From a virus (lineage: Duplodnaviria; Heunggongvirae; Uroviricota; Caudoviricetes), in IMG/VR virus record IMGVR_UViG_2529293069_000018, positions 1-6,702 of that record: 6,702 nucleotides of DNA; one strand, written 5' to 3'. Made by a program: the position numbers. Of this stretch, positions 1-3,000 are shown piece after piece (position 1 is the stretch's first letter; each line of letters starts with the position of its first letter).

Positions 1-3000
1 TCGTTTGTGCTGGCAACACCGACGGAGACGGACGGAGCGCTGTTTCCCGGTCGCATTATGCTGGCGAATACCTGTATGTGGACCTACCGCTCTGATGAGT
101 GTGGTTACACGGGCGGGGCAGTGGCGGATGAGTTCGACAACCCCACCACGGATATCCGGAAGGACAGATGCAGCAAGTGCATGCGCGGGTGTGAGATGCG
201 CAGCATGGTGGCTAATTTTGGCGGTTTCCTTTCCATTAATAAACTTTCGCAGTAAATCCCGGTTTATGACACAGACTGAATCAGCGATTCTGGCGCATGC
301 CCGGCGGTGTGCGCCTGCGGAGTCGTGCGGCTTCGTGGTGAGAACGCCGGAGGGGGAGCGGTATATCCCTTGTGTGAATATCTCTGCAGAGCCGGAGGCG
401 TATTTTCGTATTGCACCGGAAGACTGGCTGCGGGCAGAGATGCAGGGGGAGATTGTGGCACTGGTCCACAGTCATCCCGGTGGTCTGCCCTGGCTGAGCG
501 AGGCCGACCGGCGGCTGCAGATAAAAAGTGCACTGTCCTGGTGGCTGGTCTGCCGGGGGGAAATTCATAAATTCCGCTGTGTACCACATCTGACAGGACG
601 GCGCTTTGAGCACGGGGTGACGGACTGTTACACGCTGTTCCGGGATGCCTACCATCTGGCGGGAATTGATATGCCGGATTTTGAGCGTGAGGATGACTGG
701 TGGCGTAACGGTCAGAACCTTTACCTGGACAATATGGCGGTCACCGGCTTTTACCGGGTGCCCCTGTCCTCTGCACAGGCGGGCGATATCCTGCTGTGCT
801 GCTTTGGCGCATCGGTGGCCAATCATGCCGCCATTTACTGCGGCAACGGTGAACTGCTTCACCATCTGCCTGAACAACTGAGTAAACGGGAGAGGTATTC
901 CGAAAAATGGCAACGACGAACGCATTCTGTCTGGCGTCACCGCCACTGGCACGCATCTGCCTTCACGGGGATTTACAACGATTTGGCCGCCGCCTCAGCC
1001 TGTATGTGAACACGGCAGCGGAAGCCATCCGGGCGCTGTCGTTACAGGTGCCGGGCTTTCGCCGTCAGATGAACGAAGGCTGGTACCAGATACGTATTGC
1101 CGGTTATGACACGGCACCGGAGGCGGTGTACGCCCGTCTTCACGAACAGCTGGGTGAGGGAACGGTCATCCACATTGTGCCGCGACTGGCCGGGGCCGGA
1201 AAGGGTGGACTGCAGATTGTGCTGGGGGCGGCAGCCATCGTGGGCTCTTTCTTCACTGCCGGGGCATCAATGGCGTTATGGGGTTCAGCCCTGGCAGCCG
1301 GTGGTTTTTCTGCCACCACGATGCTGTTTTCACTTGGAGCCAGCATGATTCTGGGCGGTGTGGCCCAGATGCTGGCCCCGAAGGCAAAAACACCGGATTA
1401 CCGCGCAACGGATAACGGCAGACAGAACACGTACTTTTCCTCGCTGGATAACATGATTGCCCAGGGGAACCCGATGCCGGTGCCTTACGGGGAAATGCTG
1501 GTTGGCTCCCGCCGTATATCCCAGGACATCAGCACCCGTGATGAAGGCGGGGGCGGAACGGTCGTGGTTGTCGGGCGACAGGGATAAAACATAAAAAAAT
1601 CCCGCAGTGATCGCGGAGCTGCGGGGACAGACAAATGAAGATCAATGTTAAGGAGTTGTTTTTGTTACTCGGGCAAAAAAACACTAACGCAGCGAAATTA
1701 TAAGCGCCACAGTCAGTGTGTGAAAATGTGAAGATATTCAGAATTTTTATGCCATTACCGGTTTTAACCAACAGGATTATCGGTGGGCATGAAAGAAAAC
1801 CCCGGTATCTGCTGATACCGGGGTTTCTCTTTAGCATGGCAGAAATGTGTTTCATGCTTTTCGGGCGAAGGATATCCGACTTCTGTACGGAATGGCAAGT
1901 GGCGGTTAATTTATTCAGGGGAAGGCTGTATGGGAAAAGGTGGCGGCAAGGCGCACACGCCGGTAGAGGCAAAGGACAATCTTAAGTCCACGCAGATGAT
2001 GAGTGTGATTGATGCGATTGGTGAGGGACCGATAGAAGGTCCGGTGAAGGGACTGCAGAGTATTCTGGTGAACAAAACCCCACTGACGGACACGGACGGC
2101 AATCCCGTGATACACGGTGTGACCGCGGTCTGGCGTGCCGGGGAGCAGGAGCAGACACCACCGGAAGGCTTTGAGTCCTCCGGAGCTGAAACCGGACTGG
2201 GCGTGGAAGTGACGAAGGCAAAACCGGTGACGCGCACCATTACGTCCGCGAACATTGACCGCCTGCGGGTTACCTTCGGGGTGCAGTCACTGGTGGAGAC
2301 CACCTCAAAGGGTGACCGTAACCCGGCATCCGTCCGCCTGCTGATTCAGTTACAGCGTAACGGTAACTGGGTGACAGAAAAGGACGTCACCATTAACGGC
2401 AAGACCACCTCACAGTTCCTGGCCTCGGTGATTCTGGATAATCTGCCTCCCCGGCCCTTTAACATCCGGATGGTCAGGGAGACGGCGGACAGCACCACGG
2501 ACCAGCTGCAGAATAAGACGCTGTGGTCGTCATACACCGAAATCATCGATGTGAAACAGTGCTACCCGAACACGGCCATTGTGGGGCTGCAGGTGGATGC
2601 GGAGCAGTTCGGCGGCCAGCAGATGACGGTGAACTACCATATCCGCGGTCGCATCATCCAGGTGCCGTCAAACTATGACCCGGAAAAACGCACGTACAGT
2701 GGTATCTGGGACGGCAGTCTGAAACCGGCATACAGCAACAACCCGGCCTGGTGTCTGTGGGACATGCTGACTCACCCGCGCTACGGCATGGGAAAACGTC
2801 TGGGGGCGGCGGATGTGGACAAGCGGGCGCTGTATGCCATCGGGCAGTACTGCGACCAGACGGTCCCGGATGGTTTCGGGGGGACCGAGCCGCGGATGAC
2901 CTTTAATGCGTACCTGGCACAACAGCGTAAGGCGTGGGACGTTCTCAGTGATTTCTGCTCTGCGATGCGCTGTATGCCGGTATGGAACGGTCAGACGCTG

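What the first reader, a model, noticed from the sequence alone, without database searches (positions are those of the whole stretch)
1593..1724. Promoter-to-terminator unit with no ORF on the minus strand between I and J: candidate prophage small RNA
A near-consensus sigma70 promoter (TTCACA, 16 bp, TATAAT; reverse complement of 1719-1724 and 1697-1702) points at a minus-strand intrinsic terminator (7-bp G:C-rich stem, U7) about 100 nt away. The intervening sequence has no start codon. It would give a roughly 97-nt transcript with an A/C-rich single-stranded stretch (UAACAAAAACAACUCCUUAACAUUG) and a 3' hairpin plus U tail, the usual layout of Hfq-binding sRNAs. Prophage-encoded sRNAs of this kind, including anti-sRNAs that mimic mRNA targets of core sRNAs, have been described in pathogenic E. 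coli lambdoid prophages. I cannot tell from memory whether this locus is one of them or a new one. The CA-rich stretch loosely resembles the motifs GcvB binds; that is pure speculation.
Basis: partly seen in the sequence, partly recalled or inferred. Interest (0 to 1): 0.65.

Follow-up and report, generated by a model that had tools for sequence, protein, structure and literature searches.

The report
Known prophage small RNA PasB
The promoter-to-terminator unit between phage tail genes I and J is real, but it is PasB, an Hfq-dependent small RNA already found and validated in enteropathogenic E. coli in 2021, so this is a correct rediscovery and not a new element.

Summary
An 11-of-12 sigma-70 promoter (TTCACA-16-TATAAT, 1724-1697) faces a 7-bp G:C-rich hairpin plus U7 (1625-1593) on the minus strand, in the spacer between lambda-type genes I and J.

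The unit is the published sRNA PasB (Pearl Mizrahi et al. 2021). The PasB Northern probe matches window 1598-1620 exactly. The 83-nt annotated PasB maps to window 1675-1593 with one difference, A for C at PasB position 27 (window 1649). That is where Zhu et al. 2026 place the PasB/PasB-2 difference.

In EPEC E2348/69, PasB is Northern-validated and falls sharply in a delta-hfq strain. It has 37 RIL-seq interactions, almost always as the sRNA-side partner.

The GcvB idea is not supported. The stored RIL-seq rows list no significant GcvB-PasB chimera, and predicted pairing is no better than shuffles.

My re-analysis puts the seeds in the central region (window 1654-1631), not in the A/C-rich stretch. 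Predicted helices cover the ribosome-binding sites of napF, yijD, caiF, tolC, trmJ and gshA. The window's single difference lies in seed 1.

Divergent relatives occupy I-J spacers in a third of complete E. coli genomes.

Verdict: already known, low novelty.

The parts
907..1587 (+). Tail assembly gene I (226 aa), convergent with the sRNA. Its stop codon lies 5 nt from the sRNA 3' end.
   Evidence: ORF; Pfam Lambda_tail_I, E 2e-16.
1593..1675 (-). PasB as annotated in the literature (83 nt). It is 82/83 identical to E2348/69 PasB.
   Evidence: Table S6 of PMC8550237 gives NC_011601 1466343-1466261, minus strand. The offset was taken from the I stop codon and the alignment. The probe AATCCCGCAGTGATCGCGGAGCT matches 1598-1620 exactly.
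1676..1690 (-). Possible extra 5' segment (GCGUUAGUGUUUUUU) if transcription starts about 7 nt after the TATAAT. GCGUUA is nearly invariant across the family.
   Evidence: Inferred from the promoter position. Conservation is shown. No mapped 5' end is available.
1697..1702 (-). -10 hexamer TATAAT. In relatives the first base varies (T, G or A) and ATAAT is kept.
1719..1724 (-). -35 hexamer TTCACA, 16 bp from the -10.
   Evidence: It is identical in the five aligned variants and in 92 of 120 terminator-anchored loci.
1725..1745 (-). Conserved A/T-rich block upstream of the -35 (AATAAAAATTCTGAATATCTTCACA, including a second TTCACA repeat). It may be an UP element or a regulator site.
   Evidence: Most columns are conserved at 90% or more across 51 distinct family sequences. 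The function is inferred only.
1644..1654 (-). Predicted seed 1, UCCUUAACAUU (UCCUUCACAUU in E2348/69). It contains the window's single difference at 1649.
   Evidence: E2348/69 PasB forms helices with napF (16 bp, -10..+5 of the start), the yijD Shine-Dalgarno region (11 bp) and caiF (10 bp). The A variant costs about 6 kcal/mol on each.
1631..1642 (-). Predicted seed 2, AUCUUCAUUUGU. AUCUU is the most conserved motif of the RNA body in the whole family.
   Evidence: Helices with the tolC start codon (11 bp), trmJ (10 bp) and rpoS codons 11-14 (11 bp). Conservation is shown. Zhu et al. also proposed a seed just upstream of the terminator.
1593..1625 (-). Intrinsic terminator: 7-bp stem CCCGCAG/CUGCGGG, 11-nt loop, A, then U7. 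It is the likely Hfq proximal-face site.
   Evidence: In 19 diverse relatives the stem shows no substitution, while the loop length varies between variants.
1930..5406 (+). Tail tip / host specificity gene J (1158 aa), downstream neighbour.
   Evidence: six GpJ-type Pfam domains.

Best explanation
Window 1593-1724 (minus strand) is a copy of pasB. This is a stand-alone small-RNA gene carried as a 'moron' in the I-J spacer of lambdoid prophages and transcribed against the direction of the tail operon.

A near-consensus sigma-70 promoter drives a transcript of about 83-98 nt that ends at an intrinsic terminator with a U7 tail. Hfq stabilises the RNA. The RNA then acts in trans by imperfect base-pairing with host and horizontally acquired mRNAs.

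Its pairing surface is most likely the unstructured central region. That region holds two related seeds, UCCUU(A/C)ACAUU and AUCUUCAUUUGU. Both are complementary to Shine-Dalgarno or start-codon sequences of the type GAAGGA and AUGAAGA. The expected outcome is block of ribosome binding, that is translational repression, at targets such as napF, yijD, caiF, tolC, trmJ and gshA.

The copy in this window differs from the characterised E2348/69 RNA by one base inside seed 1. It probably shares the seed-2 targets but binds the seed-1 targets more weakly.

Shown by published experiment on the E2348/69 copy: the transcript exists, it depends on Hfq, and it takes the sRNA-side position in RIL-seq chimeras with these partners. 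Shown here: sequence identity, synteny, conservation of promoter and terminator, and enrichment of complementarity in the central segment. Inferred: the start site, the seeds, repression as the outcome, and expression in this particular host.
For: Identity:
- The PasB Northern probe matches window 1598-1620 with 23/23 bases.
- The window aligns to the E2348/69 I-J spacer with one mismatch across the 83-nt PasB and its promoter.
- The neighbours are the same: tail assembly protein I and gpJ.

Published behaviour of PasB:
- A Northern band of the predicted size with Hfq-dependent stability, higher in overnight static LB.
- log2 fold change -6.8 and -2.4 in the two delta-hfq comparison tables.
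- 37 interactions and a U-tract of 7, with 99-100% of chimeras placing it as RNA2.
- Partners include napF 5'UTR, map, the nlpD-rpoS region, hflX, fabR, caiF, tolC 5'UTR, raiA 5'UTR, bfpB and espC.

Seeds:
- The central segment gives mean z -1.76 against dinucleotide shuffles of 14 top partners, with 6 of 14 at p<=0.05. The 5' segment gives -0.18 and 0 of 14.
- The best helices lie at -10..+5 (napF, 16 bp), -17..-7 (yijD), +2..+11 (caiF), -4..+6 (tolC), -16..-7 (trmJ) and -10..-1 (gshA) relative to the start codons.

Family:
- Promoter and terminator are kept while the body varies.
- Members occur in 1792 of 5426 complete E. coli genomes.
Against: - No experiment has been done on this exact variant or host.
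- No target of PasB has been validated by reporter or mutation. Both papers say the function is not elucidated.
- Pearl Mizrahi et al. reported a common target motif for only three of the five Pas sRNAs. PasB is absent from the stored motif table. Zhu et al. had to predict its seed from conservation.
- My seed test uses duplex energies without accessibility and only 14 partners. Eight of the 14 are not individually significant.
- The dominant partner, 774 chimeras with a prophage RNA upstream of a holin gene, is only weakly explained by these seeds (z -1.25).
- The terminator stem is invariant, so there is no covariation support.
- The whole RNA is not more structured than shuffles (z -0.9).
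- The 5' end is ambiguous (1690 or 1675).
Confidence: 0.85

Rival explanations
1. PasB acts mainly in cis. It is fully complementary to the I-J intercistronic part of the late tail-operon mRNA and its promoter fires head-on against late transcription. After induction it could trigger RNase III cleavage between I and J, or interfere with transcription, and so tune J (host-range protein) expression. This could operate alongside the trans function.
For: The geometry is shown directly. The sRNA lies entirely within the 342-bp I-J spacer on the opposite strand. The position is conserved in every relative whose flanks I inspected. The hairpin has no U-run on the + strand, so late transcripts should read through it.
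Against: There are no data for induced cultures. The partner rows I read list trans partners across the genome and no I or J transcript, though late genes are silent in lysogens so this is a weak test. The RNA depends on Hfq and has the RIL-seq profile of a trans-acting sRNA.
Confidence: 0.2
2. PasB is an anti-sRNA (sponge) that mimics GcvB targets through its A/C-rich stretch, like AgvB.
For: The stretch UAACAAAAACAAC can be drawn paired to the GU-rich R1 region of GcvB, with a predicted -15.3 kcal/mol.
Against: That energy is no better than dinucleotide shuffles of the same segment (z -0.61, p 0.24), so it is an effect of base composition.

The AgvB-type consensus CACAACA is absent from the sequence.

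In EPEC RIL-seq, GcvB is abundant, yet no significant GcvB-PasB chimera is listed. This holds for the sRNA-sRNA blocks of both conditions and for the alphabetical PasB partner list.

There is no similarity to the AgvB or AsxR sequences, and no Rfam AgvB/AsxR hit even at E<=10.
Confidence: 0.03
3. PasB works chiefly as one half of an RNA-RNA pair with another prophage transcript. That transcript is the + strand RNA upstream of the class II holin gene of other lambdoid prophages. Either RNA could be the sponge and the other the regulator. This would link the tail-region moron to the lysis cassette.
For: This pair is by far the largest PasB entry: 774 chimeras in 3 libraries, plus 54 with the PP5 copy and 24 in the reverse order. 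The partner maps 100-230 nt upstream of the holin gene of PP2. By my reading of the sequence printed, it ends at a hairpin plus U-run just before that gene. Patches of complementarity (GACAGACAG with UUGUCUGUC; AAGAU) are predicted.
Against: The predicted pairing is patchy and not significant for PP2 (z -1.25; -2.37 for PP5). Chimera number also reflects abundance. Neither the partner's ends nor any effect on holin expression is known. The window contains no such partner, so the question cannot be assessed for this host.
Confidence: 0.25
4. The region encodes a protein or small peptide on the minus strand (147-codon ORF 1972-1529, or the in-frame GUG at 1684).
For: An open frame exists mechanically.
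Against: There is no Pfam family. No AUG or Shine-Dalgarno sequence follows the promoter, and the terminator stops the transcript before any stop codon. Relatives differ by several gaps whose lengths are not multiples of three within the frame. RefSeq annotates nothing here.
Confidence: 0.02

Closest known systems
PasB (pathogenicity-associated sRNA B) of EPEC O127:H6 E2348/69 prophage PP6 (Pearl Mizrahi et al., Sci Adv 2021, PMC8550237; survey by Zhu, Shabalina and Storz, bioRxiv 2026)
   Same: It is the same gene. The sequence is 82/83 identical with an identical promoter. It has the same position and orientation between I and J, and the same terminator and U7. The single difference falls at position 27, where Zhu et al. 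place the PasB/PasB-2 difference.
   Different: There is one base in predicted seed 1 (A instead of C at window 1649). The part of the spacer upstream of the promoter (window 1751-1929) is a different module from that in E2348/69. Expression in this host is untested.
AgvB / AsxR anti-sRNAs of EHEC lambdoid prophages (Tree et al., Mol Cell 2014, PMC4104026; Rfam RF02702, RF02703)
   Same: They are prophage-borne, Hfq-associated, short, stand-alone transcripts in 'moron' positions. As a group they have a conserved scaffold and a variable pairing region.
   Different: The sequences and terminators are unrelated and there is no Rfam hit. Those RNAs lie downstream of PR' near stx and the lysis genes, not in the tail region. 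They are 51-60 nt long. They sponge GcvB or FnrS, whereas PasB shows no GcvB chimeras and behaves as the sRNA-side partner of mRNAs.
PasA, PasC and PasD, other prophage Hfq-dependent sRNAs of EPEC/EHEC
   Same: They come from the same discovery set and class, with a 3' stem-loop plus poly-U.
   Different: They sit in a different locus (next to the sialate esterase, holin and lysozyme genes), have different sequences and are linked to each other. PasB is distributed independently and more broadly.

Membership tests
PasB sRNA | Sequence matches the published PasB (NC_011601 1466343-1466261) and its Northern probe | tested here: met
   Probe 23/23 at window 1598-1620. 82/83 identity over the annotated RNA and an identical promoter.
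PasB sRNA | Located in a lambdoid prophage between tail genes I and J, convergent with I | tested here: met
   Pfam Lambda_tail_I at 907-1587 and GpJ domains at 1930-5406. E2348/69 has the same arrangement (Table S6 '(> <) >').
PasB sRNA | [quoted passage not shown] | tested here: met
   7-bp stem plus U7. The stem shows no substitution in 19 diverse relatives.
PasB sRNA | A transcript of about 83 nt is made and is stabilised by Hfq | not testable with these tools
   Shown only for the E2348/69 copy. Nothing is known for the host of this window.
Hfq-dependent trans-acting base-pairing sRNA | Single-stranded seed complementary to several mRNA targets, typically at the ribosome-binding site | tested here: inconclusive
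   The central segment is enriched for complementarity to RIL-seq partners (mean z -1.76, 6 of 14 at p<=0.05, against 0 of 14 for the 5' segment). Six helices lie at RBS or start codons. No target has been validated, and the window variant weakens three of the helices.
AgvB/AsxR-type anti-sRNA | Conserved roughly 42-nt 3' region (..GTATCTCATGC.ATTGCCCGAACCCA.TCGGGC..) | tested here: not met
   No similarity to the sequences in the Tree et al. supplement. No RF02702 or RF02703 hit at gathering score or at E<=10.
AgvB/AsxR-type anti-sRNA | 5' region carries the GcvB R1 target consensus CACAACA and interacts with GcvB | tested here: not met
   CACAACA is absent. The duplex with GcvB is no better than shuffles. 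No GcvB-PasB S-chimera appears in the stored RIL-seq rows I read, for either condition.
AgvB/AsxR-type anti-sRNA | Encoded at the moron site downstream of PR' | tested here: not met
   It lies in the tail module between I and J, not at the location described.

The most novel reading that the evidence does not exclude
PasB may be only the best-known member of a much larger cassette family in the I-J spacer. The family would have a fixed promoter and terminator scaffold with an exchangeable, mosaic seed region. Several divergent paralogues are present per genome, up to 8 places, and six or seven in each of the two listed O157:H7 strains whose best copy is identical to the window. These paralogues were missed by the published BLAST survey.

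Its main in vivo partner may be a transcript upstream of the holin gene of other resident prophages. Tail-region sRNAs would then mediate RNA cross-talk between co-resident lambdoid prophages, for example over lysis timing, in addition to tuning host genes.
Probability: 0.2. Interest if true: 0.55.

Novelty: already known. Interest (0 to 1): 0.22.

Why it matters
For the scan this is a useful positive control. A reader working from sequence alone recovered a real, experimentally validated Hfq-dependent prophage sRNA that neither RefSeq annotation nor Rfam 15 reports.

Biologically, PasB is widespread, with family members in about a third of complete E. coli genomes. It contacts virulence and core transcripts in EPEC (map, espC, bfpB, cesD2, the rpoS region, tolC), yet its function is still unassigned.

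Three points here go slightly beyond the papers and could guide experiments:
- A seed assignment with start-codon and Shine-Dalgarno helices.
- The observation that the common A/C polymorphism sits inside a seed.
- The existence of many divergent paralogues that share the promoter and terminator.

None of this changes the verdict that the element itself is already known.

Tried and rejected
- Rfam at gathering score over the whole window, and at E<=10 over 1450-2000, gave only sub-threshold noise. The hits (Ref84, Trp leader, STnc310 and others) reflect generic hairpin plus U-run shapes.
- AgvB was my first guess from memory. I rejected it because AgvB lies downstream of PR' and its sequence is unrelated.
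- The GcvB sponge idea was rejected.
- The coding reading was rejected.
- A conserved 5' hairpin (U-run paired to A-run) appears in the single-sequence fold. The consensus fold of 19 relatives does not support it, and only the terminator survives.
- Covariation is not informative because all 7 terminator pairs are invariant.
- I looked for an EHEC name (EcOnc number) for the divergent I-J spacer variants in the Tree et al. supplements by sequence strings and found none. Whether they are in that list by coordinates remains unchecked.
- Phrase searches of the RIL-seq tables failed because the tables are tab-separated. The relevant parts were read directly instead.
- The genome-contig scan returned only E. 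albertii plus two implausible hosts.
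Full report
**1. What is in the sequence**

The window is the tail-tip module of a lambdoid prophage. It holds K (JAB plus NlpC/P60 domains, 5-1009), I (Lambda_tail_I, 907-1587), J (six GpJ-type domains, 1930-5406) and lom (5473-6072). The finding lies in the 342-bp I-J spacer.

On the minus strand there is TTCACA (1724-1719), a 16-bp spacer and TATAAT (1702-1697), 11 of 12 matches to consensus. 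Downstream lies a hairpin CCCGCAG/CUGCGGG (1625-1619 and 1607-1601) with an 11-nt loop, then A and U7 (1599-1593). This hairpin is the only strong element in the minimum-free-energy fold of the predicted transcript.

Two qualifications apply.

First, 'no start codon' holds only for AUG. A GUG and a UUG are present, and a mechanical 147-codon ORF (1972-1529) crosses the spacer. That ORF has no Pfam family and no ribosome-binding site, and the terminator precedes any stop codon. Relatives differ by several gaps whose lengths are not multiples of three. It is not a gene.

Second, the RNA as a whole is not more structured than shuffled sequence (z -0.9). This is normal for an sRNA whose body is a single-stranded pairing surface.

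**2. Identity**

Rfam 15 has no family for it, and RefSeq annotates nothing under the spacer in the listed E. coli hits.

The literature does have it. Pearl Mizrahi et al. 2021 (PMC8550237) found five prophage sRNAs in EPEC E2348/69 by Hfq RIL-seq. Their Table S6 lists PasB on the minus strand at NC_011601 1466343-1466261. It is 83 nt long, in prophage PP6 between E2348C_1436 and E2348C_1437, and convergent with the upstream gene. The Northern probe is AATCCCGCAGTGATCGCGGAGCT.

That probe matches window 1598-1620 exactly. The E2348/69 region has tail assembly protein I and gpJ on either side. Aligned to the window, the promoter and RNA are identical except for one base. The annotated PasB corresponds to window 1675-1593.

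The single difference is A in the window for C in E2348/69, at PasB position 27 (window 1649). Zhu, Shabalina and Storz (bioRxiv 2026) place the PasB versus PasB-2 difference at that position, and they note that the E2348/69 sequence is not the commonest variant.

The finding is therefore a rediscovery of pasB.

**3. What is experimentally known (from the papers, for the E2348/69 copy)**

- A Northern band of the predicted size whose stability depends on Hfq. Expression is higher in the 'non-activating' condition, which is overnight static LB at 37 C.
- log2 fold change -6.8 and -2.4 in the two delta-hfq comparison tables.
- 37 RIL-seq interactions and a U-tract of 7. 99-100% of its chimeras have PasB in the RNA2 (sRNA) position.
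- Partners in the non-activating condition, with chimera counts, include E2348C_2648 (71), napF 5'UTR (70), map (67), the nlpD-rpoS region (56), hflX (55), fabR (50), bfpB (33), raiA 5'UTR (33), ftsZ (29), espC (28), trmJ (28), caiF (27), tolC 5'UTR (26) and rplX (25).
- The largest entry by far is a + strand RNA in the pasA/E2348C_0689 intergenic region of prophage PP2. It has 774 chimeras in three libraries, plus 54 with the PP5 copy. It lies just upstream of a class II holin gene.
- Both papers state that the function is not yet elucidated.

**4. The GcvB speculation**

I tested it in two ways.

In the RIL-seq tables, GcvB is abundant and its known sponge SroC is recovered. No significant GcvB-PasB chimera is listed in the sRNA-sRNA blocks of either condition or in the alphabetical PasB partner block.

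[quoted passage not shown] Dinucleotide shuffles of the same segment do as well (z -0.61, p 0.24).

The AgvB consensus CACAACA is absent, and the AgvB and AsxR sequences are unrelated. The idea is not supported.

**5. Where the pairing surface probably is (my analysis)**

I fetched the 14 partners with the most chimeras and reasonably narrow read ranges. I compared duplex energies of two PasB segments with 200 dinucleotide shuffles of each partner. Positions are numbered from the predicted start at G1690.

It shows nothing: mean z -0.18, with 0 of 14 at p<=0.05.

The central segment (positions 33-62, window 1658-1629) is enriched: mean z -1.76, with 6 of 14 at p<=0.05.

The ungapped helices fall on two related motifs.

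| Seed | PasB motif (window) | Partner helices, position relative to start codon |
|---|---|---|
| 1 | UCCUUCACAUU (1654-1644) | napF 16 bp, -10..+5 of its GUG; yijD Shine-Dalgarno region 11 bp, -17..-7; caiF 10 bp, +2..+11 |
| 2 | AUCUUCAUUUGU (1642-1631) | tolC 11 bp, -4..+6; trmJ 10 bp, -16..-7; rpoS codons 11-14, 11 bp |
| both | spans the two seeds | gshA 10 bp, -10..-1 |

Six of the ten partners with a nearby annotated start have their best helix on the ribosome-binding site. This fits the classical mechanism of Hfq-assisted occlusion of the ribosome-binding site. Seed 2 agrees with the conservation-based proposal by Zhu et al. of a seed just upstream of the terminator.

The window's A-for-C change lies in the middle of seed 1. 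It weakens the predicted duplexes as follows.

| Partner | E2348/69 (C), kcal/mol | Window (A), kcal/mol |
|---|---|---|
| napF | -26.6 | -20.2 |
| yijD | -18.7 | -12.3 |
| caiF | -23.5 | -17.1 |

The two common alleles may therefore differ in targets.

Caveats: accessibility is ignored, eight partners are not individually significant, 10-11-bp helices with G-U pairs are individually near chance, and the PP2 partner is poorly explained (z -1.25).

**6. The 5' end**

The strong promoter predicts a start near G1690 and a 98-nt RNA. The published 83 nt comes from coverage and Northern size. The 5'-most RIL-seq read of PasB as RNA1 starts at 1466344, which is window 1676.

Three explanations are possible. 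The primary transcript may be trimmed in its U-run. RIL-seq RNase treatment may remove the first 14 nt. Or transcription may start at about 1675 from a weak TAnnnT element (1686-1681), which by my reading of the sequences is kept in nearly all family variants.

The near-invariance of GCGUUA at 1690-1685 fits either reading. This needs 5'-end mapping.

**7. Family and distribution**

Together with the other loci already held, these gave 48 distinct versions of the region.

An independent scan anchored on the terminator gave 120 usable loci. Of these, 92 have the identical promoter block. By my reading of the printed sequences, all but one of the remainder keep a -10-like hexamer at the equivalent place with an altered -35.

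Across 150 loci there are 38 distinct transcripts. The promoter, the GCGUUA start, a U-run, UCCUU, AAUCUU and the terminator stem are kept. The segments between them, and the terminator loop, are mosaic.

The consensus fold retains only the terminator. Its seven pairs are invariant, so covariation says nothing either way.

In complete E. coli genomes, a sensitive search with the 139-bp unit finds 4375 places in 1792 of 5426 genomes, with a median of 2 and a maximum of 8 per genome. In 817 records the best copy is only 60-80% identical.

The published survey used blastn with the 83-nt E2348/69 sequence. It reported 1,158 hits, mostly single-copy, with only a few nucleotide differences. The number of near-identical copies I find is similar (971 records at 90% identity or more). 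The divergent paralogues appear to be additional. This is a modest extension, not a new kind of element.

**8. Rivals**

A cis-antisense role on the late I-J mRNA is geometrically possible and untested. It could coexist with the trans role. A role as one half of a pair with the holin-upstream prophage RNA is suggested by chimera numbers but not by clear complementarity. The coding and GcvB-sponge readings are rejected.

**9. Verdict**

The element is already known as PasB, probably the PasB-2 allele. Interest is low for novelty. The remaining value is as a validated positive control and in the seed, allele and family observations above.

Noticed in passing
window 1792-1832 (module 1751-1929): A very stable, symmetrical hairpin (GAAAACCCCGGUAUC-UGCU-GAUACCGGGGUUUUC) folds at about -27 kcal/mol on either strand (z about -7.9). 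It has A-runs before it and U-runs after it on both strands, so it looks like a bidirectional intrinsic terminator between the PasB promoter and J. A weak minus-strand promoter-like site (TTGCCA-18-TATCCT, 1898-1869) lies about 70 nt upstream, so a second small minus-strand RNA is conceivable. E2348/69 has a different module here, with another hairpin followed on the + strand by TTGTTTTTGT.
   Followed up: partly
E2348/69 NC_011601 743482-743700 (L127 883-1110), outside the window: The dominant RIL-seq partner of PasB (774 chimeras) is an unannotated + strand RNA between pasA and the class II holin gene of prophage PP2. By my reading of the sequence, it ends at a strong hairpin plus U-run just before the holin ribosome-binding site. 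A copy in PP5 also pairs with PasB (54 chimeras). This may be RNA cross-talk between prophages that touches the lysis cassette.
   Followed up: partly
L035 and L124 (promoter region equivalent to window ~1712): In two loci the PasB promoter is interrupted a few bases downstream of the -35. From there the sequence changes to an unrelated stretch containing an ORF start, which looks to me (from memory, unchecked) like the end of an IS3-family element. This would silence PasB in those prophages.
   Followed up: no
L124 (Asaia platycodi contig, 546 bp) and L126 (Streptomyces flavalbus contig, 3.4 kb): Exact matches to the PasB promoter block occur in short contigs of assemblies from unrelated genera. 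These are most likely E. coli or phage contamination of those assemblies.
   Followed up: no
window 1725-1745: The block upstream of the -35 (AATAAAAATTCTGAATATCTTCACA) is as conserved as the promoter itself. It contains a second TTCACA in direct repeat with the -35, 7 bp apart. It could be an UP element or a regulator-binding site, which might explain the stationary-phase expression reported for PasB.
   Followed up: no
window 5473-6072: A full-length Ail/Lom outer-membrane protein gene (Pfam E 3e-118) follows J, as in phage lambda. It is another lysogen-expressed moron in the same tail module.
   Followed up: no
window 1681-1686: A TAnnnT element (TAGTGT here; TAATGT, TACAGT, TACCGT and others in relatives) is kept in nearly all family variants. 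It lies 6-7 nt upstream of the annotated 83-nt 5' end and is a possible second -10.
   Followed up: partly
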